In this document: in pieces, positions 5,692-36,941 of the stretch
Layout: each line of letters opens with the position of its first letter
Numbering within the stretch: the first letter of the stretch is position 1
IMG/VR virus record: IMGVR_UViG_3300048016_000221
Span: 1 to 39,943 of that record
DNA: 39,943 nt
Source of the DNA: a virus
Taxonomy: Duplodnaviria > Caudoviricetes
Strand: one strand, 5' to 3'
Program-made: the position numbers and the translations under genes
The notes under the pieces: generated by a model
Databases searched by the model: none
Told to the model about the DNA's origin: nothing
Seen by the model: the letters and a program-made list of their open reading frames with translations, nothing else

Positions 5692-6870
5692 ATGGCTGCT
5701 CCAGCTCTCGACAAATACTTCGCTTCCGACGCCTCTCGCATCGAGGGGAAAATCGACAAAATCATGCGCGTGGAGGGGCGTATCTCCGCCCTCCTCAAGA
5801 AGGATGTCCTGCCCGACGGCATGGGCTTCAACTTCAGCACCGTCATCACCAAGCGTTCCACCGGCACCGGCGGCGGTTGGGTGGCAGTGTCCACTCCCGA
5901 CGGCAGTGGCAACAACTGCGTGCCGACTCCCACCATCGTTGCTCCAGCGCGAACCCAGATCAGCTACTCGGCAGTGCAGACTGTCCAGTTCTCGGAAGAC
6001 ATCTGCTTCCGCGATCTGGCCGCAGCCTACGACGCGAAAGACCAGCTTGCCACCGACCGTGACAACTTCATCGCCAACGTCGTCGATCTCTGGGACATCC
6101 AGGACAAGGCGCAGTTCACCTACTGGGCCGGTCACAAGATCGTCTTCAACTCCTCCCTCACCGAGACGACCAACGGCACCACAATGCCTGCCGTCGCGGC
6201 GACCAGCACGATCAATCAAGGTCTGCTCGACGCGCTCTACAACCGCGCCACTCAAGACGGGGCTGGTCGTGAGTCTGCCTACGCCAAGCGTCAGGGCGCA
6301 CCGATCCTGCCGCTGATCCTCTCCCAGGAAGCGCATCGCACCCTCATCAAGGGCGACGACTCCATCCGCAATGACTTCCGCTGGGCTGACTCCGGCAAGG
6401 GTGACGGCGCTGTCCTGCTGCAAAGCTGGGGCATCGACCGTGAATATGGCGGCTACCACCACATCATCGACCAGCGCATGCCGCGCTGGGATTTGGTGGA
6501 TGGTGCGTGGGTCAGCCGTCCGTTCTACGCCAGCGCCGCCACCACCATCGGCAATGCGGCAGACGTGAGCGCGGCCTACACGGCAGCCACCTATGAGGAC
6601 GCCTACATCTTCAGCCCCGACGTGATGACTCGTCAGGTGCCGAAGCCCGCGACCTCATTCGGCTCGGGTTCCAGCGCCAAAGCCATCAGCTTCAACGGTG
6701 AAGTGGTCTGGCTCAACATCCCCAACAAGGACACCAACCCGTTCAGCGATACCGGCTTCTTCGCCGCCCGCCTCTACGCCGCCTACAAGCCCCGCAAGGT
6801 GCAGTATGGCTACGTCGTGCGCTTCCTGCGCTGCCCGAACGTGTCCGGCACCGTCTGCCCCGCCTACTAA
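5692..6870 (+). CDS. Major capsid protein
   Basis: 392 aa from ATG 5692 (MAAPALDKYF); follows the scaffold; strong C/G-ending codon bias; has its own promoter and terminator. Confidence 0.8.
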   Translation: MAAPALDKYFASDASRIEGKIDKIMRVEGRISALLKKDVLPDGMGFNFSTVITKRSTGTGGGWVAVSTPDGSGNNCVPTPTIVAPARTQISYSAVQTVQFSEDICFRDLAAAYDAKDQLATDRDNFIANVVDLWDIQDKAQFTYWAGHKIVFNSSLTETTNGTTMPAVAATSTINQGLLDALYNRATQDGAGRESAYAKRQGAPILPLILSQEAHRTLIKGDDSIRNDFRWADSGKGDGAVLLQSWGIDREYGGYHHIIDQRMPRWDLVDGAWVSRPFYASAATTIGNAADVSAAYTAATYEDAYIFSPDVMTRQVPKPATSFGSGSSAKAISFNGEVVWLNIPNKDTNPFSDTGFFAARLYAAYKPRKVQYGYVVRFLRCPNVSGTVCPAY

Positions 6871-13885: not shown

Positions 13886-13915
13886 CCAGAGGTGCCAGCA
13901 GTGCTACACAAGCAC

Positions 13916-14431
13916 ATGAACCCAACAACAAACGACGTGAAACGCTTCAACTCCTACGCTGACAAAACCAATGTGCTCGGCTGCTGGCCTTGGCAGGGGG
14001 CAGTCAACTCATCGGGGTATGGCAAATTTTGGATGGGGGGCCAGACGGTGCCCGCACATCGAGTCTCGTTCATTTTGCATCAAGGTCCAATTCCTGATGG
14101 AAGCATCATAGTGCATTCTTGCGCAGACCGGACATGCGTTAATCCTGCACACCTTCAGGCGGGAACCCATCGGCAAAACATGCAAGACATGGTTCTCAAA
14201 GGCAACTCGTTGAAAGGAGAGAAAAACTTCTCCGCAAAACTAACTCAAGCGCAGGTGCAGAATATCATCCTCAGTCTCCAACAAAAAGTGCCTCATCGAG
14301 TTCTAGCTCGCACCTCTGGAGTATCCCGAAATACCATTCGAGGCATTGCCACCAAGAGGATTTGGACGCATGTGTGGAACCAGATGGCTGCTGTTTTGAA
14401 GGCCCCAAGTTCCGCTGAAACCCAGATTTGA
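13916..14431 (+). CDS. HNH endonuclease (HNH_3 type) with C-terminal HTH
   Basis: CWPWQG..GYGKF..AHRVSF..G.IPDG..HSC....CVNPAHL..GT..QNMQD..GEKNFSAKLT; more AT-rich than its flanks; ATG 13916 preferred. Confidence 0.9.
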   Translation: MNPTTNDVKRFNSYADKTNVLGCWPWQGAVNSSGYGKFWMGGQTVPAHRVSFILHQGPIPDGSIIVHSCADRTCVNPAHLQAGTHRQNMQDMVLKGNSLKGEKNFSAKLTQAQVQNIILSLQQKVPHRVLARTSGVSRNTIRGIATKRIWTHVWNQMAAVLKAPSSAETQI

Positions 14432-24300: not shown

Positions 24301-27300
24301 CGATGACGCTGCCACGGTGGACAATCTGCGCGACCTCCTGGGCGTGGCGGACAGCAACTACGACCAGCAGAACGCCCAAGGTGGTGCGGCGGTCAACCAA
24401 GCCTTCGCTCAGCGCGTGGCGCTGAAAGAGTTGTCCAAGCGCGTGCATCGCGAGAAAGCACTCTCAGCGGCAGACGAGCAGTGGATTCGCGAGAACGCGC
24501 CGATGTATCTCGGCAAGACTCGTGACGCGACCCTGCGCAATGTCTCCCGTTTCTACGTCAACACTTTGACTTCTGAGAGCGACCACATCGCACACACGAT
24601 GGCCGGTGAGAAGGCCGAAGTGCCGCAGTTCATGCGCGATTCGCTGGAGACGGCGAAGGCGATGGCCGCAGCAGGCAAAACCAGCGAAGAGATTCGCGCC
24701 GTCACCGGCTGGTTTCCCGGCAAGTATGACGGGAAGATGCGTTGGGAGGTGCCTGACGAGGGGGCAAAGTTGCATAAAGACTGGCAAAGCAAGGACACGG
24801 TTGGTGAAGCGATAGACCACCCTGACTTGTTCAGAGCGTACCCAGAAGCCAGAGACATATATCTCAAGGAGTTGCTGCATCCGGGTATGGAAGCCGCATC
24901 GTACCAGGATGGTGTCATCCGTTTCAGAAAGTCTGCGAACCTGTCCATCCTGCTTCACGAAGTTCAGCACTGGATTCAGGAGCAGGAAGGCTTTGCAAAA
25001 GGGGGCGATTTTCGGATGGCTTTTGCTGACCCGAGAATGGGTGTCGGCTCAAAAGAGGGCATCCGTGGTGCCACCCGAATCTTGAAGCGTATTTTGGCGA
25101 ACATGCGAAAGCCCCTGTCCATGGAGGAGTTCGCCAAGAGCGCGTGGCAGTCGGATGTCGTGACTCCCGAAATTGAGGAGTCCTACAAGGAATATCTGGA
25201 GACAAAAAAGAAAGCGGGCACCGACTACAATCTGGAGAGGCTGGCGCAAGAGACTGCCGCTAAAGAGTGGTATCGAAATCTCGCTGGCGAGATCGAAGCC
25301 CGCGATGTCCAAGCCCGGCAGAACTTCACCCCCGAGCAGCGCAAAGCCATCGCCCCCTACTCCAGCGAGAACATCGCCAAGGAAGACGCCATCGTCATGT
25401 TCGGCAGCAACGGGCCGCAGGAGTCCCGAGGATACCGCTCCCCCGCCGACCTGCTGGCTGAGACAGCGGGCAAGCTCAAAGGGGAGGCCGCTGCCAAGCC
25501 CGGTGGACTCAGCAGCATGTTCAACCCGAAGCCGGGCAGACCGGCCACCGGTGAGCGCACGCTCTTTGAGACGCCGAAGGCTGCCGATCCAGTTTCTTCC
25601 CGCGTCAGCAACAAAACTGCGAGCGAAACGACCGAAAGTAATGAGAATCCGTCGCAGGTAACAAATATCGCCAACGCTGTTGATGCGGCAACCAATGCCG
25701 TCAAGACGGCGACTTCTATCGCAGAGGCTTCACCAACTCTTGAGACTTTGACAGTCGATGAATTGAAGCAGGTGGCGAGGAACACCGGCTATCCGGCTAC
25801 CGGAAGCAAGAAGGAACTGGTGCAGCGGCTGCTCAGTGCCGTGAACTACCGGGCCTCTGCCGTGGCTATCCGAGGCGATGCGGTTGTGCCGAATGTTCCC
25901 GTGGCGCAGCGCACGCCAGAACAGCAGGCGCGGTTTGATGAGGAGATGCGCCAAGCGGAAGCTGCCGCACCAAAGGCACTAAAGGTCCGCAAACCCGACA
26001 GATCACAAGAGGCGTTCAACCGCAACATGGGAGCGATCAGGTCCAGCCCCCTCGACCTCGCCGCCGCCTACCAGTCCGCCGCGCAAGGCAGCAGCACTTC
26101 AATGCTGCCGCTGGATGCCGTGTTTGCCGCAGCGCAGGCGGTGAACCCGTCACTCACCGAGGCCGCGTTCATCGACAGCGTGAAGCAGGCGTACGACGCG
26201 GGCACCGTGCTGCTGGAAGGCGCGGGCAGCCAGCGGGAGGCCGACAACGCAGGCATGACCATCCCCGGCATGCCCGTGGGCACGGTGGTACGGATGATGG
26301 TGCCAGAATCAACCAGTCCAACTTATGCAGCACCCATCAACCCAGCACAATCCGATGAACACCGAGGAGGAACCTCTGACCCAGCGACAGGAGGCAGCCA
26401 AGATAATGCACCGGTTTCACCGGAGCTTGACGCCCGCAGAAAAGAAGCAATTTCCGCAGCAGTGGCTGAACACGACTGGGGAAACTACACGCGAGAGCAG
26501 AAGGTGGCGGCGGCAGAATCTTTCCTCACGAAGTGGGTATCTCCCGTTCGTGCATTGGAGTTCCCCGCTGATGTTGGAATCCGTGTCTCGGTTGGAGATG
26601 GCAGTGGAGCGAATGTCACGGTCCATGAGGTTCCTTCGCAACCAGTGGGTGTCGTCGTCAACGTAGGGCAGAGCCGAGTTATCGACAAATACGCAAACCT
26701 CGCCCCTGAGCAAGTGTTCGCTCACTTGTATGACTCCGCTCAGGAGGAGATAATTCATGTGGCCCACTACCTCGGCATCTACCGCCAGTGGCAGGCTACA
26801 CGAGTCAAAGGAGACACCACCAAATTCCTGCCGTATCTCAAGCGCAAGCTCAAGGAGACCTTTGATCAGATGAACCAGGCTCGCTTGGACCTGCAACAGA
26901 CCAACCCTGCTGCCGCCCAGAAGATCAAAGATGCCATGCTGGCGTCGTGGAACCTCTACCATCGTGACGACCCTGTTACCGGCATTGCCGGTTTGTGGAA
27001 CCGGCTGGAAGGCAAGCCAGAGGCGCAGATGGATTTCACGTCAGAGATGGTTCGCATGCTCACCCAGCTTAAACGCCAAGACTTCACTACCGAGACCGGC
27101 TGGCAGAAGTTCCGCAGCATGCTGGCGAAGTGGCTCACCGACGCCATCAACGCGCTGCGTGGTGCGCAGGACGTGTTCCGCTCAGGCATGGCCGGTGATC
27201 TGATCCAACGACAACTCGCTGACCTCGAAGCCGCGCTGGACGGCAGGCCGCTGCCACCGGGACCGGCGACGAAGCTGGCGCTGGACGTGCGCTTTGCTGA

Positions 27301-30300
27301 ACTCACGGCGTCACTGCCAGAGGAGATGACCGCTGAGGACATTGCCACCTTCAAGGCTGAGCACCCGGCTGAATATGCCGAGCTTGAGGCGATGCGGGCG
27401 GAGGTGCTGAAGGCTGGTGGGTGGGACGTGGGGCCGGTTTACCACGGAACATACGGCGGCGTGGCTGCTTTTGATGATCCCGTTTTTAACACACAGCGGG
27501 CTGGTGGTGTGTGGTTTTCTACCAATCGGGAGTATGCAGATGGTTTTGCTAGGGGTAGATCAGACGCTTTTTATGTAAAAGCTGATAACATATTGGATGT
27601 TGATTTGGACGTTATCGAGAAGCCTTCCGAAGACGACGTAAATGGCGCGGTAAATTCTGGTTATGACGCGCTACGGTATGAGGGGCAAGAAGGAGACAGT
27701 GACGGAGGGCAGATATTTGTCTTCGACCCCAACCAAATCAAATCCGCCGACCCGCTCTCACCCGGCCCGAAAATCCCGCCGAGCCAGTGGGGCGACGACT
27801 CTTCACCGCTGATCACCCGTGCGGCACCGATGCGCGCTGACACGGCACGGCAGCGGGAGGCCGATAAAGTGTTCGGCGTGATGAAGGAAGACGACCGTTT
27901 CGAGGAAGGCGTGGACATGTACGACCGGCTCAAGGCCAAGCCGTCGCAGCCTTCCGCTGGCAACAGCACGCCACCACGGTTTACCAACGCCGCGCAGTTT
28001 GCCGCCGAGTTTGAAGCGGCGTTCCTGCGAGGTGACTTCGACTACTTCCTGGAAGCCCTCAAGCAATCCGACCGTCACATCTATGTGCCGGAGATGAAGA
28101 AGTACCTGCTGGCGACGAAGCTCGACCCGACGGACAAATACGCCGCCGACCGATTGGACTGGTTCCGCAGCGCCATCGCAGGCACGGTGCCTGCCACGGC
28201 CAAGCCGCAGACCAAGACCAAGCCGCCTCCGCCTCCTGCCGGAGCCGCCGCGACACCGCCACCTCCTGCCGCGACACCGCCACCTCCTGCCGCGACACCG
28301 CCGCCCAAAGCAGGTGTCTCCAATCGCCCCATGCTGACTCTGAACCCTCCAGCGATGGGGCTGATTGCCCGGATGCTCGGCGCAGGCATTCGCATCAACG
28401 AGCTACTGCGTCGGGCACGCGGCACAGCCGTGGTCAATTTTGCCGACGGGTCCGAACTTCAACTCAGCGAACATCTGTTCAAAGACCCGGTGCAAGCGGC
28501 CAAGACTTTGGCGCACGAGATCGGTCATCTGTTTGATGCCATGCCTGCCAGCGGCATCGGCCAAAAGCTGGCAGGCAGAATTGCCCCGCTCGGAGACTTC
28601 CGCAAAGTATTCGGTGACGACCTTGCCGACTGGTCCATGGAAGGTGGCAAAAAGATGAAGCTCTCCAAGATCAACAGCCTGATCCTCGCCGAACTGGTGG
28701 CGCTGTCGAAGAAGTGGAGAGGCGACTTCACCTACAAGCCCGGCACCTATCGCAGCAAAGGCAGCGAACTGTACGCCGACTTCATCTCCGCCATCCTCAA
28801 TGACCCTCAGTGGGCGGCGAAGAATGCGCCGTATTCTACGTTGGGTTTCCTCAATGCGTTGGAAGACCAGCAGAAGCCGGAAGTTGATGAAGCCTACCGG
28901 CTGGTCGTCAGCCTCGTCCAAGGCGGCTCGCTCTACAAGGCACTGGCAGAGGCCGACGAGACCAAGTCCACGACCGCACTGGAACGGCTGATCGCGAAGT
29001 CCAGCGCCCTGATGCGGGCGAAGAAGACTCTCAACGACGCCACCCGTGGCCTGTACCGCTCCATGTTCGGCAAGTGGTTGCCCACCGCCATCCGCGATGG
29101 CGGTATCTGGAAGTCCTACTGGAAGCGCATCAAGAGCGTCGGCACTTTGAAAGACTACAACTGGGCGCAGGAAGAGGCTTCGCAGTTCGCAGTGCGCCAG
29201 ATCGCACGATTTGATGACGCCATGGCGAATGCCGTTGGTGTCCCGATGAAGCTGGCTGGCATCAGCCCGGAGTATCTGCAACGGCTGCAAACCAACAACC
29301 GCATCATCCATGAACGCCGCCGCGTGGGCGTGCTGATCGAGCAAGACCCGGCGAAAGCGCGGGAGCTTTTGAAGTGGATGATTGACGCTGGTTTGCTGGG
29401 CCAGGACGTGCAGGATGAAGTGGACGGCGCCGCCGACGCCGATCTCTATGCCATGACCGCCAAGGTGATTTACAAGCTGCACGAAAATGGTGAGAGTTTC
29501 GAGCGGGCGCTGAAAGCCGCACGGCGCAAGGACGCCCCTGCCGATGCCGAGAAAGCCTTGTATGCCTTCGATGTGTCCGGCTTCATGCTCAATCCCAATG
29601 TGCATACCATGGAGACTGCCGAGGCCGACAACGCCGACCTCAAGCAGACGCTCGGGCCGAACCTGTTTGGCGAGCTGGAGCGCATCAACGAGGGCTACCA
29701 CGATCTCATCAAGCGCACCATGATCGAGGCCAACAACCTCGGCCTGTTCCGCCCGAGCACCTGGGAAGACGTGATCGTGCCGAACTTCGGCGTGTACGTG
29801 CCGTTCATGCCGATCAAGTACTTCACCGGACGTGTGGGAGGCGGCATCGGCCCGGCGCGTGTTGGCACCGCGCACGACCTGATAGCCCCACATGTGGTGG
29901 GCACCCTCAAGATGCACGCGCTGATCCACCGCATGCAGCGGCAGAAGCAGGCGCACATCCTACTGGACTTCTTCAACACCAACGGCTTCAGCAACGACCT
30001 GGAGCCGGTGGAGGACGAGAACTTTGACCAAGCCAAGGCGGACGAACTCACCCGGCACTCGAAGCACACCATCTCCTACCTTCCCTACTGGGACAACGGT
30101 GAGTACAAGTGGGTGAAAATCAATGGCACGGATGCCGTGCCGCTGGTGCAAAACTCCGACCCTGACGATCTCGCTGCACTCTACAAGGTGATGCGCTCCA
30201 ACACCAACTTGTGGCGGTTGAACTTCACCATCTTCTCCATCGGCTTCAACATCAACAACGCCCTGCGCAACATCGCGTCCCCGGCTGCCGACATCGGCCC

Positions 30301-32008
30301 CAAAGCGGGGTATCGAGCCGCCAAGCAGCTTCTCTCCGCCTTCCCACACATGGCGAAGTGGGTGTGGGCAAAGGTGCGAGGCAAAGACCCAGCCTCCCTG
30401 GTGGCCGCGTCCATCGCGGTGGAGCACGCCCGTCACAGACCTGGCATGGTGGCGTCGAAAGAACTGCAAGAGTTCTACGACCGCAACATCCTCCAGCCGA
30501 TGCCGGATGTCGCCTCCCTGCGCATGACCGAGGAGGAGCTTGCTCGCAGTGTGATGGGAGCCATGTCCGCGCCGGAGTTCCTGCTGCAAGGAGTCCACAA
30601 GCCTGCCAAGGACGCCAACTGGTACGACAACACCATCAAACGACAGGTGCATGCCGCCGTGGACTTCCTGAGCTTCATTGGCTCGGTGTCCGAGGCGGCA
30701 CCCAAGATCGCTGCATACCAGACGCTGAAGGAGAAGAAAGACTCCACAGGCGCGGCGAAGTTCACCGACGCGGAAGCAACTTATCTTGCCACGCTTGAGG
30801 GCATCCCGCGCCCCAGTGTGGCCGGTGCCCACAACGCCACGTTGGAGATGGTGCTGATGTTCTTCCGTGTGGCCGTGCAATCGTGGCGTAAGCATCTCGT
30901 CATGGCAACGCAGCCCAAGACGCGGGCCGGATTCCTGATGCGCCACATGCTGTTTGAAGGAGCGAAGTTCGGCCTACAAGCCATGGCTGCCAACGGTGCC
31001 ATTGACTACCTCATCGCCATGGCAGCAGCGGCGGGGGACGATGATGACGACCCGGAGAAGCACAAGCAGGTGGACTGGGCGGAAGCCATGGGCCGACAAT
31101 CCAGTTACAAGCTCAGCCGTGGCGGCATCGGCCCGCTGATCTGCTGGGTGCTTCCTGATGGCAGCATCGAGCCGCCCTGGGGGCACAAGACCATTCCCGC
31201 CGACTGGACTCCCATCATGCCTCGTCTGCCCGGCACGGAACTTAGCCGTGAGGCCGACCCGTTGGCCTACTACGTCACGTCCAAGACGCTGGCTCCGTCC
31301 ATCGCCCCGGTGAATGAGGACATGTTCTGGAACGACTTCATGCGGACCATCGTTCCGGCACTCAACCCTTCGTTCGACGTGGTCTCCGACGCCATGAGTG
31401 TGGTGGGACCAACGCCGCCCCGCGACAGTTACCGGGGACGCGACAAGGTCGAACAGCGCATCTGGGATGAGGGCTACGTTGCCCGCCTGATTGGGTTGGG
31501 AGAGCATCACCTGAAATCATCTTTCGGCATCGGCTCAAACTCGTACGATACCCAACTGCCGGGCGCGTGGAACGTGCTCAAGCAGCCCGGCTTCAAATCG
31601 TTGATCACCAGCGACAACATGGTGGGAGTGCGTGAGGAGCAGAGGGCGCGTCGCGAAAACGACCTCACCAGCTCGTTCGCGCAGAACATGGTGGGTGAAA
31701 AGTTCGGCGTCATCAAGAACACCTTCAACCGCCTCAAGGCCAAGGAAACGCCGAAGACACCACAAGAGGAAGCAATCTACAAGACTCTGGGGCCGATCAT
31801 GTCGCGGGCTTTCTACGGCACCGAGAAGCGCGACGGGCTTTACGACGTTCTGCAAAGGTATGCCCGCATGAGAGCGAAGGGTTTGCAGGACACGTCGGGC
31901 GGCAAGGTCTTGAAGGCCGAAGCCGAGCAGGCCGTGCTGGATTTGGAGACCATTGCCACGGAGCTTCAACCAACCTTGGAATACCTCCGCACTCACACCC
32001 TGCCATGA
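18365..32008 (+). CDS. Giant (4547 aa) polyvalent virion/ejection protein
   Basis: Gly/Ala hydrophobic N-terminal region; kinase-like (IGEGSESEVY..VLKV..DLYDGGNII, about 20200-20600); GHKL ATPase (RESLQNSLDA, EDNGVGM, GGFGIAK, GTKI, about 21190-21550); HExxH at 22469, 23735, 24956 and 28514, EExxH at 26744; ART-like at about 23035-23370 and 27440-27750 (VYHGT..WFS..GYDA..VFDPNQIKSA); LPD23 (TGWFPGKYDGKMRWEVPD, about 24600-24770); SAP at 25739-25834; LPD38-type C-terminal region. Confidence 0.88.
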   Translation: MPAYVVELEGGKKFRVEADSPPTEQDIQQFLGEESSAKEEPFLDVSDILSAAGGAVKGLPTTVPHAFRQLYSGLDNPWERSTGYEESQKANDTYGQELEAANQAAVESGDISTMSRGMRQAGQSLGFSGGAMAAGLVGSTLGGTAYGAVGRSLGAVAGPGGAIAGEAIGRGAGALAAGYGAAYRMAGAQFLDDARKEVDAKFLQVAGRLPNAEEQAEAYRELKPLAEAFGHAEAGPEAIGNLAMAGAGKYVFGLGKKTIEKLAAGALKKTGAVAGGLATELGGETATQVEQNRIEADKQALLQGQEPVAPTPRTVEEYAQAFKEVAPATLATMGLMSSVPAAMKGASLLRDALSGAYDKDKAAQEAEFPGSSPSAQGISDDESRANFAAGGKPVIDPTTGDVKYLPPGVTLEAAAAQRGDMRKTAEAAAKRGIPVEVDGQVIAYIPPDSDLTPEQVADFAGEPDTLKAMARKGQITLPEIIAPIPGVPEEITTAMNEQVAAAAALAPGTVEALKASEAATPPPTRRQQIQARLAEIENQYGPREDVIVGADGNPTQTRPRRINTTEEDALLKEVEGINAAENTAPVQSPRDPANDAEAAKTKEFTQAEIDAKEKIGEGSESEVYADGDKVLKVSESYNQAETLAERVEYALRAEKLLGNLSGLQYAGFRRGRNGVLNPVFSQRRIDGPSASRAQVQELFRDHGWTENSDGTFYIDTEAGRVSTLSDLYDGGNIIVAEGKVIPRDVATVVEATPTPQVSPVTPATETHADAAIVAATATEVAPTVTDEIQPSVLTPAAAESTAEIQPDVETFEQKAIPKLSNRIQELGGLLTDSEAFGDSEFYDGTFPIPRTGGVFAAKSTNKYRTDPEYAHKVDSAIKDITDTMVRANRQRMILTGVPGSGKFDVNFSVEKARATYGVNVVRAWNNEARQKYPYTSRLGNVSVRESLQNSLDAVLGAIETKQIKQGEISIDTETHDRKGFIVEDNGVGMSDVDIGEKFLSLHSTGKAVQGRFGGFGIAKAVILGPSETATWTLQTRDNEFDHDAAQANEVVRGVPYRQGTKIDVVTQDRIIDDGAKKYVETTELPKNVVVKFNGEAPVYPFKGMRSPMKKTVKVNDSTSYDISYYPKAPEGYENVNVIRLVDQKTGAKLTQSLSPAGSYNFKGAFVIDITTTATPGSSEYPLTDSRMEIKYGAPMEAIRGITEKVAVDPYSTNRGDVPSTMRNTSDMSEWKDTIADAYNPDGGYHKLFEVISNIWEKTGQYSGSSSKPITRIEDLRIKVDTGYKGYRGGTTFHAKHLAAYEAVSRLMAPDAGARVTEFYGMLSKSVDGSTRGAEHAAGGVMGFNFLNIDKTALKSPVSYALYLRDLVAHELTHDFHDRHNEEFTSKEIEVQRATAHLFPDILKIAEATLGQESGLGGKTKTVTKTVEKRVEVPVIVEKVVEVEAPKRETTPEEKYLPPQQLQFIYENAELPTTSEATDDLYYPRQEVAGNLWSQPIRTSGSSARLSSEAKDTGIGSRTQQSDSSGFPVSKSGSVGAGAVDAGEGLDSSTAADLRAASVKVTFTHSTKTEPGKGQQSGYFPGTYAYEDGTPEGLRRTSEGEKFTGSLSESDIYTAQDAEQLKKDAAKAGFGYHTGNGNAEVKYLQSLGYKAMRRGSTGGTEIIVFDHNDAGFQRVAASPAISADLRAAEATNTAYAKHLGLPTAPTVVEDAGAMLKQAMQRAADSPALKNSPLLRMIAKILARLDFAGLSLEVVAEGKGDFAGSYNSATQRVMLDLRAVARDNLTLPANLIHELLHHFTMEKIANPLTAVERRAVAQLEKIRAGVEQYLKQQGLAEKYDYEIGSLREFVTHLGTREDFVDLLKNIPANFVPRAPGTKFRSVLSDISRWLAELLSNRQVERGSALEQAMEAALALVQSPQHQFGGDGVARSPTTGRNAKLVASLPSEVVAAAERIVSTGTISDEDATIIKQSAVASLLDEADDAATVDNLRDLLGVADSNYDQQNAQGGAAVNQAFAQRVALKELSKRVHREKALSAADEQWIRENAPMYLGKTRDATLRNVSRFYVNTLTSESDHIAHTMAGEKAEVPQFMRDSLETAKAMAAAGKTSEEIRAVTGWFPGKYDGKMRWEVPDEGAKLHKDWQSKDTVGEAIDHPDLFRAYPEARDIYLKELLHPGMEAASYQDGVIRFRKSANLSILLHEVQHWIQEQEGFAKGGDFRMAFADPRMGVGSKEGIRGATRILKRILANMRKPLSMEEFAKSAWQSDVVTPEIEESYKEYLETKKKAGTDYNLERLAQETAAKEWYRNLAGEIEARDVQARQNFTPEQRKAIAPYSSENIAKEDAIVMFGSNGPQESRGYRSPADLLAETAGKLKGEAAAKPGGLSSMFNPKPGRPATGERTLFETPKAADPVSSRVSNKTASETTESNENPSQVTNIANAVDAATNAVKTATSIAEASPTLETLTVDELKQVARNTGYPATGSKKELVQRLLSAVNYRASAVAIRGDAVVPNVPVAQRTPEQQARFDEEMRQAEAAAPKALKVRKPDRSQEAFNRNMGAIRSSPLDLAAAYQSAAQGSSTSMLPLDAVFAAAQAVNPSLTEAAFIDSVKQAYDAGTVLLEGAGSQREADNAGMTIPGMPVGTVVRMMVPESTSPTYAAPINPAQSDEHRGGTSDPATGGSQDNAPVSPELDARRKEAISAAVAEHDWGNYTREQKVAAAESFLTKWVSPVRALEFPADVGIRVSVGDGSGANVTVHEVPSQPVGVVVNVGQSRVIDKYANLAPEQVFAHLYDSAQEEIIHVAHYLGIYRQWQATRVKGDTTKFLPYLKRKLKETFDQMNQARLDLQQTNPAAAQKIKDAMLASWNLYHRDDPVTGIAGLWNRLEGKPEAQMDFTSEMVRMLTQLKRQDFTTETGWQKFRSMLAKWLTDAINALRGAQDVFRSGMAGDLIQRQLADLEAALDGRPLPPGPATKLALDVRFAELTASLPEEMTAEDIATFKAEHPAEYAELEAMRAEVLKAGGWDVGPVYHGTYGGVAAFDDPVFNTQRAGGVWFSTNREYADGFARGRSDAFYVKADNILDVDLDVIEKPSEDDVNGAVNSGYDALRYEGQEGDSDGGQIFVFDPNQIKSADPLSPGPKIPPSQWGDDSSPLITRAAPMRADTARQREADKVFGVMKEDDRFEEGVDMYDRLKAKPSQPSAGNSTPPRFTNAAQFAAEFEAAFLRGDFDYFLEALKQSDRHIYVPEMKKYLLATKLDPTDKYAADRLDWFRSAIAGTVPATAKPQTKTKPPPPPAGAAATPPPPAATPPPPAATPPPKAGVSNRPMLTLNPPAMGLIARMLGAGIRINELLRRARGTAVVNFADGSELQLSEHLFKDPVQAAKTLAHEIGHLFDAMPASGIGQKLAGRIAPLGDFRKVFGDDLADWSMEGGKKMKLSKINSLILAELVALSKKWRGDFTYKPGTYRSKGSELYADFISAILNDPQWAAKNAPYSTLGFLNALEDQQKPEVDEAYRLVVSLVQGGSLYKALAEADETKSTTALERLIAKSSALMRAKKTLNDATRGLYRSMFGKWLPTAIRDGGIWKSYWKRIKSVGTLKDYNWAQEEASQFAVRQIARFDDAMANAVGVPMKLAGISPEYLQRLQTNNRIIHERRRVGVLIEQDPAKARELLKWMIDAGLLGQDVQDEVDGAADADLYAMTAKVIYKLHENGESFERALKAARRKDAPADAEKALYAFDVSGFMLNPNVHTMETAEADNADLKQTLGPNLFGELERINEGYHDLIKRTMIEANNLGLFRPSTWEDVIVPNFGVYVPFMPIKYFTGRVGGGIGPARVGTAHDLIAPHVVGTLKMHALIHRMQRQKQAHILLDFFNTNGFSNDLEPVEDENFDQAKADELTRHSKHTISYLPYWDNGEYKWVKINGTDAVPLVQNSDPDDLAALYKVMRSNTNLWRLNFTIFSIGFNINNALRNIASPAADIGPKAGYRAAKQLLSAFPHMAKWVWAKVRGKDPASLVAASIAVEHARHRPGMVASKELQEFYDRNILQPMPDVASLRMTEEELARSVMGAMSAPEFLLQGVHKPAKDANWYDNTIKRQVHAAVDFLSFIGSVSEAAPKIAAYQTLKEKKDSTGAAKFTDAEATYLATLEGIPRPSVAGAHNATLEMVLMFFRVAVQSWRKHLVMATQPKTRAGFLMRHMLFEGAKFGLQAMAANGAIDYLIAMAAAAGDDDDDPEKHKQVDWAEAMGRQSSYKLSRGGIGPLICWVLPDGSIEPPWGHKTIPADWTPIMPRLPGTELSREADPLAYYVTSKTLAPSIAPVNEDMFWNDFMRTIVPALNPSFDVVSDAMSVVGPTPPRDSYRGRDKVEQRIWDEGYVARLIGLGEHHLKSSFGIGSNSYDTQLPGAWNVLKQPGFKSLITSDNMVGVREEQRARRENDLTSSFAQNMVGEKFGVIKNTFNRLKAKETPKTPQEEAIYKTLGPIMSRAFYGTEKRDGLYDVLQRYARMRAKGLQDTSGGKVLKAEAEQAVLDLETIATELQPTLEYLRTHTLP
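22758..23000 (+). CDS. Putative overprinted 80-aa gene in the +1 frame of the giant gene
   Basis: MKTPSYQPPVRPRTTSIIQDKKLLETSGASQSEQVEALLDSAARQKTLELGAGLNSRIHQAFLSLSREVWELAQSMRAKG*; coincides with an S/G-rich linker in the main frame. Confidence 0.4.
   Translation: MKTPSYQPPVRPRTTSIIQDKKLLETSGASQSEQVEALLDSAARQKTLELGAGLNSRIHQAFLSLSREVWELAQSMRAKG
28247..28302 (+). repeat. 21-bp coding tandem repeat (AATPPPP), about 2.7 copies
   Basis: GCCGCGACACCGCCACCTCCT at 28247 and 28268, partial copy at 28289. Confidence 0.9.
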
Positions 32009-32592
32009 AACGCCCCGCCAACGAAGCCATCGTCCCGTCCGGCGGTCGCTGGAAATACCTCGACCCGCTTACCGGTGTGCCGTTCTCCACCGACAACCTG
32101 ACCGTGCTGTTGCAGGAGGTGCGGGGCCAGCGCAAAGCCAATGGCATTGAGATCGAGAGCGGCTGGGAGATCGCAGTGCTGGATGAACTCTGTGAACAGA
32201 ACTCCAATGTCGAGTGCCACGATGTGGAGAACCCGGAGATTCCCATGACCGGGGACGACGTGAAACGGTTCCTGCTCACGCTCAAAGAGCAGCTCGGCAA
32301 AGAACTCGTGAGCGAGGAAGAGCATCGCCGCCGTGCGGACATCTGTCTCACCTGCCCCAAGTTGGGCTACGTCTCCTGCACCTTCCCGTGTGGCTGGGTC
32401 GCCGGTATGCTCACTGAGTTGCTAGGAGGTAGGCGGATTCACCGGCCAGCGGAGTTCTACAAGCGCGGCTGCAAAGCGTGTGGGTGCGACGTGACGAGCA
32501 AGTCGTACTACCCTCTCGACGTGCTCAAGACTGTTGACGAGAAGCTGGGGAAGAACCCTGACTATTGGGAGCACTGTTGGATGCGGAACTAA
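32005..32592 (+). CDS. Cys-rich zinc-binding hypothetical protein
   Basis: RADICLTCP, CTFPC, CKACGC and CW motifs; N-terminal PSGGRWKY module; ATGA-coupled to the giant gene. Confidence 0.7.
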   Translation: MKRPANEAIVPSGGRWKYLDPLTGVPFSTDNLTVLLQEVRGQRKANGIEIESGWEIAVLDELCEQNSNVECHDVENPEIPMTGDDVKRFLLTLKEQLGKELVSEEEHRRRADICLTCPKLGYVSCTFPCGWVAGMLTELLGGRRIHRPAEFYKRGCKACGCDVTSKSYYPLDVLKTVDEKLGKNPDYWEHCWMRN

Positions 32593-32976: not shown

Positions 32977-33004
32977 AGTATGCAGAAACTTCGCGGTCTG
33001 TCAA
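32977..33004 (-). promoter_or_regulatory. Sigma70-like promoter for the tRNA-like pair
   Basis: TTGACA (33004-32999) - 16 bp - CATACT (32982-32977); the predicted +1 falls at about 32970, the first base of the tRNA-like element. Confidence 0.55.
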
Positions 33005-34245
33005 TCCTTTGTGATGTTGATCGTGCTCTGCACCCAGCCCGCCGTCGCCACGATGTAGCCGTTGGTGGCGAACGTGCCGACGAGGTCGGGGACGCCGACC
33101 TTCAGCTTGGCAGCCAGGTCGTTGATCCGCATCTTCTTGCCGTTGAGGGCTTTCTCAATGTCGGCACGGGTGATGGTCTTGGATTCCTTGACCTTGGTGA
33201 CGGTATGCACGGGAGGCTTTGGTGCGACCACGGGGACGACCGTCTCCGGCTCGGGAGCCTGCGAGGGTTGCTTGTCCTCGCTGCCCCAGAAGCCGTCGTC
33301 CGCCACTCCAGCAGGGGAGGGGATGCCGGGAGCCTCACCAACACCTTTGTCGTAGATACCGGCAGGGGAGGGGATGCCGTCCGCTCCTTCGGGTCCAGGA
33401 GTATCGAAAGCTGGGTCAAAGAAGGTGGTCGCCTTCTTCAGAGCCGCGATCTTCCCTGCGCTTTGTGTAGGGTGACGCATCATCCCCAGCACGATCTTTG
33501 CCAGTGAGCCGTCCTTGCAGCCGTGAATCAGCAGCGCCTGCGCAGGCACCATTCCGCCACGCTTGCGCACAACTCTTTCGCCGTGATCCACTGACTGGCA
33601 GAGGAGTTCTCCCCCTTCCAGGTGATAGTTCTCCGTCGCCCACATGTCGGCGATGAGCGGGGTGTCGGACACGCCGATGTTCTTGATCGCCCAGCGCAGG
33701 TAGATGTCCCACGGGATGCGCGGGTTCATCCACGCCGGTTTGGCGAGGTCGGCGATGAGTGGCTTGATACGCTCGTCGCGTTCCATGTGAGCCGGATAGA
33801 TGCCGCAGCCCATCATCATGGTGTCACCACCCTTGAACATCAGTTTGCCGTTGTCCTCGAACGGCGTCAGCACGACGTTACCCATGAACGGGGTGCCGCG
33901 CATGCGGTAGTCATCGAGCAGTTTGTCGGCCCAGCGCGGCGATACGGGCAGCATGTCCGGTTCCATCAGCAGGAATGGCTCAGAGTTGCCCGTCAGGCCG
34001 AAGGCATCTACCACCGCAGCAAAGTGGTTGTTGCACGCCACCGGAGGACCGCCCTCGAAGTCGCGGTTGAGGGGATGCACCTGTGCGCCGAGGCGCTCCG
34101 CCGCTTCATAGGCGGCATCTTTGGCAGCAAGCGTGGGGAAGTAGATCACCTGATGCTCTTCCAAGCCGCCCATCTTGAGCAGGCAGTCAGCTTGGGCGGG
34201 GAGAAGGTGCTTGTCGTGGGCGGATACGGGGATGGCGATTTTCAT
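33001..34245 (-). CDS. Putative GT-A-fold glycosyltransferase with a Pro-rich linker and small basic C-terminal domain
   Basis: KIAIPVS N-terminal strand, FLLMEPD (ExD metal-binding motif after hydrophobics), GCGIYP, WDIY, LIHGCKDGS; two GIPSPAG repeats; position in a GT cluster. Confidence 0.5.
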   Translation of the reverse strand: MKIAIPVSAHDKHLLPAQADCLLKMGGLEEHQVIYFPTLAAKDAAYEAAERLGAQVHPLNRDFEGGPPVACNNHFAAVVDAFGLTGNSEPFLLMEPDMLPVSPRWADKLLDDYRMRGTPFMGNVVLTPFEDNGKLMFKGGDTMMMGCGIYPAHMERDERIKPLIADLAKPAWMNPRIPWDIYLRWAIKNIGVSDTPLIADMWATENYHLEGGELLCQSVDHGERVVRKRGGMVPAQALLIHGCKDGSLAKIVLGMMRHPTQSAGKIAALKKATTFFDPAFDTPGPEGADGIPSPAGIYDKGVGEAPGIPSPAGVADDGFWGSEDKQPSQAPEPETVVPVVAPKPPVHTVTKVKESKTITRADIEKALNGKKMRINDLAAKLKVGVPDLVGTFATNGYIVATAGWVQSTINITKD

Positions 34246-34637
34246 GCTTGGAGGATGTATTGAGGGACTTGGACGTACTGGCCGTCTTTGAAGTTGTAGC
34301 GCGGTGAGAAGGAGTCCGTGAGCGTGTTCAGCGTTCGCGGCAGTTGGTGCAGGGCTTCGTGACTGCCCACTACGAAAGCATGTTCAGACATCGGTACGCC
34401 TCCGGGCAACGTCAGATCAATGTCGTAACGTAGCGGCTCTTGCGGATGGCGGAGAATCCTCACTGCGTAGCTTTGCTCCGAGGACAGGATGAAAATGTCC
34501 TCATAGGCCGCATTCACGTACTCCGGGTTGAGGACACACTGCGCAGCCTTGGGCATCAACGGACGCAAGCCGGTCAACTCGATGGCTGCGGCACACGCGG
34601 CTCCGGCGAGGAGTTTGAAGAGGGAGCGGCGGTTCAT
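34242..34637 (-). CDS. Twin-arginine-signal protein with permuted major-capsid-like segments
   Basis: MNRRSLFKLLAGAACAAA Tat-like signal; LNPEYVNAAYEDIFILS and DSFSPRYNFKDGQYVQVPQY match two capsid segments; ATGA-coupled to 34245 and 4-bp overlap with 34634. Confidence 0.7.
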   Translation of the reverse strand: MNRRSLFKLLAGAACAAAIELTGLRPLMPKAAQCVLNPEYVNAAYEDIFILSSEQSYAVRILRHPQEPLRYDIDLTLPGGVPMSEHAFVVGSHEALHQLPRTLNTLTDSFSPRYNFKDGQYVQVPQYILQA

Positions 34638-35635
34638 GGTCGGCTGTTCTCGATGGCTTGTTCAAACTTGAGGTATCTGGCCCGCTCGCCAGGGTCGGCG
34701 AAGAAGTCAGGACACCTTTCCACATTGGCAGAATATACACGGTCGCCTGCTTCTGCAATGGAGAGATTTTCCCTTTGTGCAACTTCCTTCACCAGCAATT
34801 CAAAGACCGGGCTGGGCAGGTACTCGGCGTAGCGCCAACCTCCTCCCGGTGGAGTGACGTGGGTTCGCCTCTCCGCTGGCGGACGCTTGCCGCGCAGCAC
34901 GGTGCCGTCAGGCAATGTGACCACCCCGTCGGCGACGTAGGTGGCGTTGGGTCGCACATAGACGCAGTCGGGCAGCTCCAGGTTGGACTCTTGAATGCTG
35001 TGATGCTTCATGCCTTCTGCGAGAGCATAAGCGCACGACTGGTTGCCGATGAACAGGTCCGAGCCTTTGATCACCTGCGCCATCTCCAGCAGGTTGGCGG
35101 TGGGGTGGTGGCTGACATAGCCGTGGTTGTTGACGAACTCGCGCCATTCGTGCTCCAGCCCGATGAACAACAGTCGGCTGCCGTAGTGCGCTACGATCTC
35201 CGTCCACGGGAACCGGTCATTGCGGTAGCGGCTAGTGCGGTTGATCACCACTCGCCCGCGTGGCACGGCAGACGGCTCGACGCCGTGCAGCCACGGCTCT
35301 TTGGCAGTGAAGCCGCGACCGATGCCGTGCTTTTTGATCAGGTGATTCAGGTGCGCCTGCATCAACGTCTCGCCGGGGGAGAAGTGCCGTTCGCGGAAGT
35401 CCTCACTGCGCCAGTCCACTGGATCATCTTGGCCGATGAGGTTGATGTCACGGATGTAGGGTTGCAGGCGCACCAACTTTTCGAGATTGGCAAACAGGCG
35501 TTGCAACCCTTCATCGTCTTTGGCCTTGGTCCACTTGGACGACCGCAGCGATAGCGTGTGCGGGCCACCGGGTATCTGACTGATGATATTCAGAAGATAT
35601 ATGCAGTCACCATTGTCCCCCGTGCTAGAGATCAT
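34634..35635 (-). CDS. GT9-like (ADP-heptose:LPS heptosyltransferase-like, GT-B) glycosyltransferase
   Basis: ATG 35635 (MISSTGDNGDCIY; the GD.GD motif resembles the GT9 xGD start), LVRLQPYI, RFPW, LLEMAQVIKGSDLFIGNQSCAYALAEG (GT9 DLxIGNDSG..HLA). Confidence 0.7.
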   Translation of the reverse strand: MISSTGDNGDCIYLLNIISQIPGGPHTLSLRSSKWTKAKDDEGLQRLFANLEKLVRLQPYIRDINLIGQDDPVDWRSEDFRERHFSPGETLMQAHLNHLIKKHGIGRGFTAKEPWLHGVEPSAVPRGRVVINRTSRYRNDRFPWTEIVAHYGSRLLFIGLEHEWREFVNNHGYVSHHPTANLLEMAQVIKGSDLFIGNQSCAYALAEGMKHHSIQESNLELPDCVYVRPNATYVADGVVTLPDGTVLRGKRPPAERRTHVTPPGGGWRYAEYLPSPVFELLVKEVAQRENLSIAEAGDRVYSANVERCPDFFADPGERARYLKFEQAIENSRP

Positions 35636-36941
35636 GCCTGTATCCTCCTTGGTACGCTTCCCGCACGAAGTTCGGCGTGGTGGTGGCCGGATATTCTTCC
35701 CCGGTGCAGTGAACGCCAGTGATGCCAATGTGGTAGGAACGGGAGGCGGTGGGTAGGAGGCACTTCAAGCCGCTCTTGGGCCGCACGCGCAGGCTGATGT
35801 TCCAGTCCCAGCCGGAGGAGGTTTCGTCGGCGTTGCCGCTGGTGTAGTCGAAGTCCCAAGTGTCTCTCAAATGGGCGTCCCACATTCGGCGCGAGGTGCC
35901 CCAGATGTTGCCGGTGAAGGTGTCTTCCAGCACGAACTTTGAAGGGTCGGTATCGCTTGATGCCCCGACGTTCTTGGCGCAGACGGCGAGTGCTTCCTGC
36001 CGACGTGTAGCCTCGAAGAAGTTCAGGATGTCTGGCGACACCAGAAAGTCGTCCTCGGCCAAAATCACGAAAGGGGCGAGTTGCACCTTGAACATGTTCT
36101 CGAACAGGTGCCAAGGGTTGCGCAGCACCCCCAGCCGCTCGCGGTTGTGGTGTAGAATGACGGGCACTGGGCAGAGCATTTCAAAAGCCTGGATAACCGC
36201 CACGGTGGCGCGCTTGTCTTCGTGTGGCTCGATGAAGAAATGCACTGCTGACACGAGGGGCAGTTCGGTGTTCAGCCATGATTTCAGCGATCTCTCCAGC
36301 AACTCCGACCTGCCGCAGACGGTGAAGGCCAGCGCCATCTGCTTGTGCAACTGCTGCCGCGCTAGGCTACCTTGCCGGTAGCGTTCAGACGAGTTGCTGT
36401 TGCGCGACACTTCATCCTCCGCGCCATACCCCTGTGATGGGTTGGCATGCAGGAACTCCACGTCGGAAGCGTCCACGAAGCCACGGGCAACGGCTTGGTC
36501 GGTGAAGAAGTCGTCGCAGTACACCGAGTAGAACTTCGGATGGAACAGGTACCCCAGCTCCTGGTAGAATGTTCGTGAGATGATCGGATGACAGATCAGG
36601 CCGTCCTTGCGGTGCTTGTCGCCCACCTTGAGCACGTCGGCACCGGCCATGCGCGATATGATGATCTCGTCCCAGCCGTGCGGTGGCTCCCAGTCATCAT
36701 CCAGCGTCACCAGGATGTCACCTGTGCTGTCAGCCGCCGCCACGTTCCAAGCGCGCACCGGGCCTTGTGGCGACCACACCACCACGGCACCGGGGAACTC
36801 TGCACGGCTGGCAACGTCATCGGCGTCAACGGCGGTGACGACCTCAATGCTGGCACGGTTGTCGGCACGCGAGAGCCAGAGTTCCTGGCACTTGCGGGCA
36901 GCGGCGGGACGACGGGTGGCGTGGAGGAGGGAAATTTTCAC
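35625..36941 (-). CDS. Two-domain GT-A glycosyltransferase (GT2-like plus GT13/GnT-I-like)
   Basis: Domain 1: KISLLHATRR..DADD..WNVAAADSTGDILVTLDDDW..YCDD. Domain 2: FTVCGRSELLERSLKSW..LGV..FVILAEDDFLVSPD..WGT..W..GWDW..SRSYHIG. Confidence 0.8.
   Translation of the reverse strand: MKISLLHATRRPAAARKCQELWLSRADNRASIEVVTAVDADDVASRAEFPGAVVVWSPQGPVRAWNVAAADSTGDILVTLDDDWEPPHGWDEIIISRMAGADVLKVGDKHRKDGLICHPIISRTFYQELGYLFHPKFYSVYCDDFFTDQAVARGFVDASDVEFLHANPSQGYGAEDEVSRNSNSSERYRQGSLARQQLHKQMALAFTVCGRSELLERSLKSWLNTELPLVSAVHFFIEPHEDKRATVAVIQAFEMLCPVPVILHHNRERLGVLRNPWHLFENMFKVQLAPFVILAEDDFLVSPDILNFFEATRRQEALAVCAKNVGASSDTDPSKFVLEDTFTGNIWGTSRRMWDAHLRDTWDFDYTSGNADETSSGWDWNISLRVRPKSGLKCLLPTASRSYHIGITGVHCTGEEYPATTTPNFVREAYQGGYRHDL

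What the first reader, a model, noticed from the sequence alone, without database searches (positions are those of the whole stretch)
34242..34637. Tat-signal protein that is a circularly permuted fragment of the phage's own major capsid, embedded in the glycosyltransferase operon
Seen: the 131-aa protein begins with a twin-arginine-like signal (MNRRSLFKLLAGAACAAA). Its aa 108-127 DSFSPRYNFKDGQYVQVPQY align ungapped to capsid aa 260-279 DQRMPRWDLVDGAWVSRPFY (nt 6469-6528; 8/20 identical plus W/Y twice, D/N, L/F). Its aa 36-52 LNPEYVNAAYEDIFILS align to capsid aa 292-308 VSAAYTAATYEDAYIFS (nt 6565-6615; 7/17). The two blocks are in the opposite order. In the capsid they flank a Ser/Thr-rich loop (ASAATTIGNAAD) that the small protein lacks. 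Inference: a stand-alone mimic of one capsid subdomain, possibly exported. It could be a decoy against host capsid-sensing immunity, a superinfection-exclusion factor, or an adaptor or regulator for the flanking GTs acting on that loop. I know of no described system with this architecture.
Basis: partly seen in the sequence, partly recalled or inferred. Interest (0 to 1): 0.85.

Follow-up and report, generated by a model that had tools for sequence, protein, structure and literature searches.

The report
Reshuffled mini copy of capsid domain
A small optional gene of a freshwater phage joins an export-like leader to four re-ordered pieces of its type of head-shell protein, which are predicted to rebuild one shell domain in miniature and likely serve as a decoy; this gene design seems undescribed and its function is untested.

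Summary
The 131-aa protein carries four capsid-derived pieces, not two: capsid aa 289-309, 372-383, 205-219 and 255-281, in circular order. They correspond to the predicted A-domain strands and surface insertion of an HK97-fold major capsid protein. The two extra pieces are significant only at family-profile level (shuffles: 0 of 1000).

I found 74 family members. Of 73 scored, 52 hold both main blocks, all in permuted order. The gene is under purifying selection, and the same leader carries other capsid pieces in relatives.

- It is not a recent copy of the phage's own capsid, which ranks 85 of 91 for similarity.
- A glycosyltransferase role is unlikely: the upstream neighbour gene is in 27 of 27 near-complete relatives, the intact small gene in 1.
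- The leader is Tat-like but atypical, and export is untested.

Best guess (0.4): a leader-tethered or exported decoy for host capsid-sensing immunity. Main rival (0.25): interference with related phages' head assembly. The scan found this leader-plus-capsid-fragment design before on other DNA (at least 16 genomes); six literature searches found no description.

The parts
34242..34637 (-). Small gene, 131 aa: RR leader plus circularly permuted mini A-domain; overlaps both neighbours by 4 bases (ATGA)
   Evidence: AlphaFold2 mean pLDDT 88.2; identical pieces of the gene in three other freshwater metagenomes
34569..34637 (-). Leader, aa 1-23: N-R-R-x-L-F-K, 11 uncharged residues, conserved Glu; predicted helix 3-22; not capsid-derived
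   Evidence: P 0.92 against capsid; 65% mean pairwise identity, the most conserved part
34479..34541 (-). Piece 1, aa 33-53, matching capsid aa 289-309 (end of the insertion and the following strand)
34440..34475 (-). Piece 2, aa 55-66, matching capsid aa 372-383 (last strand of the capsid); new in this report
   Evidence: 0 of 1000 shuffles, family profile; P 0.19 for the single protein
34338..34382 (-). Piece 3, aa 86-100, matching capsid aa 205-219 (strand plus helix); new in this report
   Evidence: P 0.015 for aa 86-100, 0.001 for aa 87-98; second-best diagonal, 0 of 1000 shuffles
34251..34331 (-). Piece 4, aa 103-129, matching capsid aa 255-281 (strand and first half of the insertion)
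5692..6870 (+). Major capsid protein, 392 aa, HK97 fold, closest to N4-like and cyanopodophage capsids
   Evidence: AlphaFold2 pLDDT 80.2; Foldseek 9lbz E 4.6e-11; VIA-align 9d82_A Z 18.0, rmsd 3.9, 294 aligned
6304..6348 (+). Capsid aa 205-219, counterpart of piece 3
6454..6534 (+). Capsid aa 255-281, counterpart of piece 4
6529..6564 (+). Capsid aa 280-291, hairpin with a conserved Thr-rich tip; the point at which the permutation opens the chain
6556..6618 (+). Capsid aa 289-309, counterpart of piece 1
6805..6840 (+). Capsid aa 372-383, counterpart of piece 2
34634..35635 (-). Upstream neighbour; core gene of this phage group; GT-like only by recalled motifs, no profile hit
33001..34245 (-). 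Downstream neighbour; with the upstream gene it bounds a slot that holds changing accessory genes or nothing
35625..36941 (-). Glycosyltransferase (GT2 / GNT-I-like), two genes upstream

Best explanation
The gene encodes a conserved twin-arginine-type leader fused to four circularly permuted capsid pieces that are predicted to fold as a monomeric mini A-domain, which likely acts as a decoy that binds a host capsid-sensing immune protein and would hold it at the membrane or send it out of the cytoplasm. Shown: the four pieces and their cyclic order, the family, purifying selection, the gene being optional, and the swapping of different capsid pieces behind one leader. Predicted: the fold, and that the pieces are the A-domain sheet plus its outer insertion. 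Inferred: expression with the terminase-side operon; binding to a host sensor without switching it on, because the fragment lacks the E-loop and P-domain and cannot form shells; and routing by the leader to the Tat machinery or inner membrane. Tat carrying bound partners is recalled knowledge. Origin, inferred: an old duplication of a capsid gene in this phage group, opened at the insertion's hairpin tip and trimmed of everything outside the A-domain, then moved between phages as a cassette.
For: Four diagonals in an unbiased sliding scan (offsets 256, 317, 119, 152); the best and second-best diagonals outside the two known blocks are reached by 0 of 1000 shuffles. Strand and helix patterns match between the two models. 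P22's A-domain is likewise built of three separate segments, with its I-domain inserted (PMC9965877, passages). In 52 of 52 members holding both main blocks the order is permuted. pS 0.72-0.79 against pN 0.26-0.35 over 27 pairs. The gene is optional and sits in a variable slot. The same leader carries P-domain pieces (P0013, P0131, P0134) or pieces of capsid aa 25-56 (P0156, P0136); this fits baits for different sensors better than one assembly interface. Capsid proteins are known triggers of Thoeris and CapRel, with Thoeris escape sites in different capsid regions (PMC12578639 and PMC13728456, passages). The payload stays near the family-typical sequence while the own capsid has drifted.
Against: No host, sensor or binding partner was identified, and no cultured relative was found. 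A capsid mimic could trigger a sensor instead of blocking it. The leader departs from the Tat consensus: Phe two places after RR in 0 of 70, an uncharged stretch of only 11 residues in 54 of 70, and weak hits to TIGR01409 (1 of 41, E 0.012) and PF10518 (5 of 41, best E 0.022) with none for this protein. Leaderless members exist (G012). Most members keep only the two main blocks; single-sequence scoring found all four in order in 2 of 73. Resemblance to other phages' capsids fits the interference rival equally well. L015 versus L016 differ by 2 non-synonymous and 0 synonymous changes (too few to weigh).
Confidence: 0.4

Rival explanations
1. Interference with related phages: the mini A-domain binds capsid subunits of a co-infecting or superinfecting relative through A-domain contacts, caps growing capsomers, and the leader drags them to the membrane.
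For: The payload resembles other lineages' capsids more than its own in this phage and in G003 (ranks 85 and 82 of 91). A-domains pack around capsomer centres, and a capsid homologue (Ccm) is a known interference device (PMC8569155, passages). The gene is optional.
Against: Own-capsid ranks in the other four pairs are 31, 21, 87 and 38 of 91, which is no clear pattern, and distance from the own capsid may only mean that this capsid lineage is derived. The gene is translationally coupled in the terminase-side operon, so it would be made together with the phage's own heads. No prophage form was found in bacterial genomes. Payloads from several capsid regions would each need to work.
Confidence: 0.25
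2. A minor morphogenesis factor for the phage's own head: a membrane-tethered seed, folding helper or minor virion protein that uses A-domain contacts.
For: Position in the terminase-side operon; confident fold.
Against: Intact in only 1 of 27 near-complete relatives; no sign of tracking the own capsid sequence.
Confidence: 0.1
3. An adaptor, regulator or substrate mimic for the neighbouring glycosyltransferases acting on the capsid's Thr-rich hairpin.
For: In 5 of 9 distinct contexts (window, L007 lineage, L019, L014, L015/16) the gene lies within or just before this gene cluster, and L021 follows genes also found upstream in the L007 cluster. The hairpin tip is conserved across capsids.
Against: The upstream neighbour is in 27 of 27 near-complete records, mostly without the small gene. 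The slot also holds unrelated genes or nothing. Members lie among small ORFs (L017), beside an endolysin-like gene (G015) or among replication genes (G012). The protein lacks the Thr-rich tip.
Confidence: 0.07
4. Non-adaptive debris from capsid gene duplication.
For: Leader-only stubs and unrelated tails exist (G009, G017, G029); the linker varies widely.
Against: Synonymous sites near saturation with blocks conserved; invariant permuted order in 52 of 52; the pieces kept are those that rebuild a domain.
Confidence: 0.05

Closest known systems
A-domain of HK97-fold major capsid proteins, with its insertion (P22 gp5 I-domain site; N4 gp56 outer A-domain loops)
   Same: Sequence homology to the four predicted A-domain strands, the first helix and the insertion of this phage group's capsid. 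P22's A-domain is made of three separate segments with the I-domain inserted (PMC9965877, passages). N4's A-domain has loops that protrude on the outer surface (PMC11768535, passages).
   Different: Stand-alone, circularly permuted, without N-arm, E-loop or P-domain, and fused to a leader. The equivalence of this insertion to the P22 and N4 ones is inferred from position, not from superposition.
Twin-arginine (Tat) signal peptides (TIGR01409, PF10518)
   Same: N-terminal RR motif, basic residue at +4, hydrophobic helix. This protein fits the TatP pattern quoted in PMC6085387 (passages); 35 of 70 members do.
   Different: Leu/Ile-Phe instead of Phe-Leu; short uncharged stretch ended by a conserved Glu; more conserved than its own cargo (65% against 42-49%), which is unusual for a signal peptide (recalled).
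Ccm of SaPIbov5 (capsid homologue used for phage interference)
   Same: A capsid-derived accessory protein encoded apart from the capsid gene (PMC8569155, passages).
   Different: Ccm keeps the whole HK97 fold, forms pentamers in the shell and is encoded by a satellite. This protein is a leader-tagged fragment encoded by the phage itself.
Capsid-sensing defences (Thoeris ThsB1/B2 of Staphylococcus, CapRel SJ46) and phage anti-defence proteins
   Same: They supply the logic for a capsid decoy: major capsid protein is the trigger (PMC12578639, PMC13728456, passages).
   Different: The passages I read describe escape by point mutation or inhibitors of other origin; none describes a capsid fragment used as bait. 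No such system was linked to this phage here.

Membership tests
HK97-fold major capsid protein (gene 5692-6870) | HK97 fold over the whole chain | tested here: met
   Model pLDDT 80.2; top Foldseek and VIA-align rows are phage capsids, best Z 18.0, rmsd 3.9, 294 aligned
HK97-fold capsid protein or Ccm-like paralogue (small gene) | N-arm, E-loop, P-domain and A-domain in one chain | tested here: not met
   Only capsid aa about 205-220, 254-283, 285-312 and 371-386 are matched in the sliding scan
Capsid A-domain mimic (small gene) | Sequence homology to all A-domain segments | tested here: met
   with a profile of 10 long members chosen by me from the 55 true members then in hand; pieces 2 and 3 are not significant for the single protein
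Capsid A-domain mimic (small gene) | Same secondary-structure elements as the capsid region | tested here: met
   Small E34-36/H38-41/E45-52, E56-62, E87-91/H93-97, E104-107/E113-117/E120-124/E127-129 against capsid E288-292/H294-297/E301-306, E374-379, E203-210/H212-221, E255-259/E265-269/E272-276/E279-283
Capsid A-domain mimic (small gene) | Three-dimensional superposition with permutation | not testable with these tools
   The two models cannot be superposed here. Library searches were inconclusive: no Foldseek hit at E 0.001 in PDB or BFVD; best VIA-align row Z 3.2, rmsd 9.3, 92 aligned
Tat signal peptide | Twin arginine near the N-terminus | tested here: met
   70 of 74 members; the other four are one KR, two that start later, one with a long upstream extension
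Tat signal peptide | RR-x-F-L-K consensus (Phe two places after RR) | tested here: not met
   0 of 70; Leu 35, Ile 34, Thr 1. The looser TatP pattern (PMC6085387) is met by this protein and 35 of 70
Tat signal peptide | Uncharged hydrophobic region of sufficient length | tested here: inconclusive
   11 residues then Glu/Asp in 54 of 70; a threshold of about 13 for TATFIND is recalled, not read
Tat signal peptide | Curated profile score (TIGR01409, PF10518) | tested here: inconclusive
   No hit for this protein; weak hits in 1 and 5 of 41 members
Tat signal peptide | TatC-dependent export and cleavage | not testable with these tools
   Needs a reporter assay
Anti-defence decoy | Binds a defence sensor and blocks it | not testable with these tools
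   Host and sensor unknown; no PADLOC hit for 4 proteins tried, which says nothing on anti-defence

The most novel reading that the evidence does not exclude
Phages keep a modular kit in which an almost invariant RR leader is fused to refolded miniatures of their own immune triggers. Here it is a circularly permuted capsid A-domain; in relatives P-domain or E-loop pieces, and leaderless P-domain minis in the same slot. The mini-proteins bait capsid-sensing receptors and use the host Tat machinery to remove them from the cytoplasm. The payloads would then map which capsid surfaces bacteria sense.
Probability: 0.3. Interest if true: 0.92.

Novelty: categorically new. Interest (0 to 1): 0.75.

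Why it matters
Whatever its job, it is a natural, selected case of a discontinuous capsid domain excised, circularly permuted and made to stand alone, and no library or paper I searched covers it. If it is a decoy, it adds a new class of counter-defence and points to the capsid surfaces that bacterial sensors read, a question that is open for most systems. If it interferes with relatives, it is a phage-versus-phage weapon aimed at head assembly. The small, confidently predicted domain and the swappable leader make both ideas directly testable in laboratory strains.

Tried and rejected
Complex prediction of the payload with the capsid was not available, so binding was not modelled.

Fold searches with the small model gave nothing significant. 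The top VIA-align row is a capsid (3j4u) but at Z 3.2, rmsd 9.3, which I do not count. The ESM Atlas gave only leads under 0.9; a second look-up did not complete.

No relatives of the capsid or the small protein turned up in GTDB genomes, in 50,697 GenBank phages or among PDB sequences (capsid profile only), so the host is unknown. No RNA holder was listed. A second read-laying run did not complete.

No DNA-level similarity beyond chance-length words between the small gene and the own capsid gene (best in-block hit E 0.19), so a recent copy is rejected.

The leader and aa 67-85 do not match the capsid (P 0.92 and 0.83). The alternative tails in G017 and G029 match neither the capsid nor anything else in the window. 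The promoter scan found no site just upstream of the gene.

Rows dropped: P0115 (1477 aa repeat protein, spurious) was left out of family counts; P0119 was skipped by the script; block B was not anchored for G015 and G012, so their ranks rest on block A alone; L015/L016 was left out of the pooled pS/pN.

Literature searches aimed at this design listed no paper describing it. I saw listings and abstract starts only, except PMC13728456. The library lacks most subscription papers, and I opened no supplements.

Full report
Observation. The window is a virus record (G000, 61% complete). The ORF 34242-34637(-) encodes 131 aa and overlaps both neighbours by ATGA. Contigs of three other freshwater metagenomes carry pieces of the gene with no differences, and one bridges the junction to the downstream gene; a fourth run may be the source of the window. 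The gene at 5692-6870 is an HK97-fold major capsid protein: AlphaFold2 pLDDT 80.2, best matches N4-like capsids (Foldseek E 4.6e-11; VIA-align Z 18.0, rmsd 3.9, 294 aligned).

More than chance. A capsid profile hits both blocks in most members of the small family. The payload profile without the leader hits only the gene and the capsid (E 1.5e-9) among 640 six-frame segments of the window. In 50 phage records (49 picked from the 70 capsid loci, plus one found through the small gene) the family profile matches only capsid frames and small-family ORFs.

Four pieces, not two. The model of the small protein is confident (pLDDT 88.2) and has more strands than two blocks explain. I built a profile from 10 long members, chosen by me from the 55 then in hand after noticing the likeness, and slid 10-residue windows along the capsid profile. 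Four runs stand out: small 29-56 to capsid 285-312, 54-69 to 371-386, 86-101 to 205-220, and 102-131 to 254-283. Outside the two known blocks the best and second-best diagonals score 16.5 and 12.6; 0 of 1000 column shuffles reach either, and a reversed capsid profile gives 7.9. Segment tests agree, although aa 86-100 is weaker (P 0.015), and for the single protein the two new pieces are not significant. The order is that of a circle: start at the hairpin tip near aa 287, run to the C-terminus skipping the P-domain excursion, wrap round, skip the first 204 residues and two helices, and end at aa 283. Each piece has the same predicted strands and helices in both models. By position these are the A-domain sheet and its insertion (HK97 layout recalled). 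P22's A-domain is also made of three segments with the I-domain inserted (PMC9965877, passages), and N4's A-domain loops protrude outward (PMC11768535, passages). I could not superpose the models, and fold searches were uninformative.

The family. Three searches gave 74 members of 51-170 aa (P0115 dropped as spurious). The search without length limits returned no fused form among 50 hits. Of 73 scored, 52 hold both main blocks, all in permuted order; most are short forms and 2 show all four pieces in order by single-sequence scoring. The same leader carries other capsid pieces in some members: aa about 329-351 (P0013, P0131, P0134), aa 25-48 (P0156) and aa 45-56 (P0136). A different leader carries the same permuted payload in G015, a leaderless form exists in G012, and leader-only or unrelated tails occur in G009, G017 and G029. 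Synonymous sites are near saturation (pS 0.72-0.79) with pN 0.26-0.35 over 27 pairs, and the leader is the most conserved part.

Not a copy of the own capsid. Among 91 distinct capsid block pairs the window's own ranks 85th, 13/35 identical against 24/35 for the best. In five other phages the own capsid ranks 82, 31, 21, 87 and 38, the last two on one block only. This may reflect an old origin, transfer between phages, or aim at foreign capsids.

Context. The upstream neighbour is present in 27 of 27 near-complete relatives. The intact small gene is in 1 of those 27, with one leaderless form and one stub; forms with other leaders and payloads can be missed by this profile. The slot between the two neighbours is variable: in 11 loci read it was empty in four and held other genes in seven. 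Two of those (G005, G002) end in a match to capsid aa 337-363, as does the extra gene of the L007 lineage. Only one gene of the cluster is a glycosyltransferase by profile. A glycosyltransferase-adaptor role is therefore unlikely.

The leader. It reads N-R-R-x-[LI]-F-K, then 11 uncharged residues and an acidic residue in 54 of 70 members. It fits the TatP pattern, and similar short RR-x-L-L leaders are listed among predicted Tat signals of Pseudomonas (PMC6085387, passages). It misses the usual Phe position and scores only weakly on Tat profiles. I call it Tat-like; export, membrane tethering or binding to another partner all remain possible.

Mechanism. I commit to a decoy (0.4): an optional, modular gene that displays conserved capsid surfaces without being able to build shells, with a leader that would remove whatever binds it. 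Capsid proteins trigger Thoeris and CapRel, escape sites lie in different capsid regions, and one study cited in a review found that triggering capsids need to oligomerise (PMC12578639 and PMC13728456, passages). Every step from binding onward is inferred. Interference with related phages' head assembly (0.25) fits the distance from the own capsid and has a precedent in Ccm (PMC8569155, passages). An own-assembly role (0.1), a glycosyltransferase adaptor (0.07) and debris (0.05) fit worse.

Novelty. No family library or phage collection holds it, and six literature searches listed no description. The scan itself noted the broad design in at least 16 other genomes, some also permuted; a sequence look-up found no look-alike of this protein there. 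These notes are unchecked and are not support. In the excerpts I saw, none describes a four-piece rebuilt A-domain.

Noticed in passing
L007:10363-10854(+) (P0137; same in L008-L013); G005 slot gene (L138); G002 slot gene (L142): Leaderless genes of 107-163 aa in the same slot end in a match to capsid aa 337-363, a P-domain strand region (24-residue scores 25.4, 36.6, 14.1; shuffle P 0.000, 0.000, 0.006). They look like a second kind of capsid-mimic mini-gene.
   Followed up: partly
P0013, P0131, P0134, P0136, P0156, P0155, P0111: The same leader carries single capsid pieces from the P-domain, the aa 25-56 region, or only the first half of the insertion.
   Followed up: partly
L099:1207-1611(-) (G017) and L125:1987-2220(+) (G029): The family leader fused to tails with no match to the capsid or to the window; G017's gene sits in the same slot as the window's gene.
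   Followed up: partly
window 34634-35635(-) C-terminal part and 32005-32592(+): The neighbour's C-terminal domain shares a short PPGGGWRY-like motif with the N-terminus of the 195-aa Cys-rich gene after the giant ORF (BLASTP E 0.018).
   Followed up: partly
window 18365-32008(+): A 4547-aa ORF, by size and place likely an ejection protein (inferred), containing what look like inserted enzyme domains, including a GHKL-type ATPase motif (read by eye); the L007 counterpart is 2360 aa.
   Followed up: no
window 13892-14431(+): HNH endonuclease among the tail genes (PF13392, E 2.9e-13).
   Followed up: no
L140, L141, L143 (G013, G011, G012), slot after the neighbour gene: The slot holds a 128-aa gene that looks like a MazG-type nucleotide pyrophosphatase (recalled motifs, not tested).
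   Followed up: no
window 6529-6564(+): The Thr-rich hairpin tip is conserved in nearly all 80 capsids aligned; it could be a contact or glycosylation site independent of the small gene.
   Followed up: no
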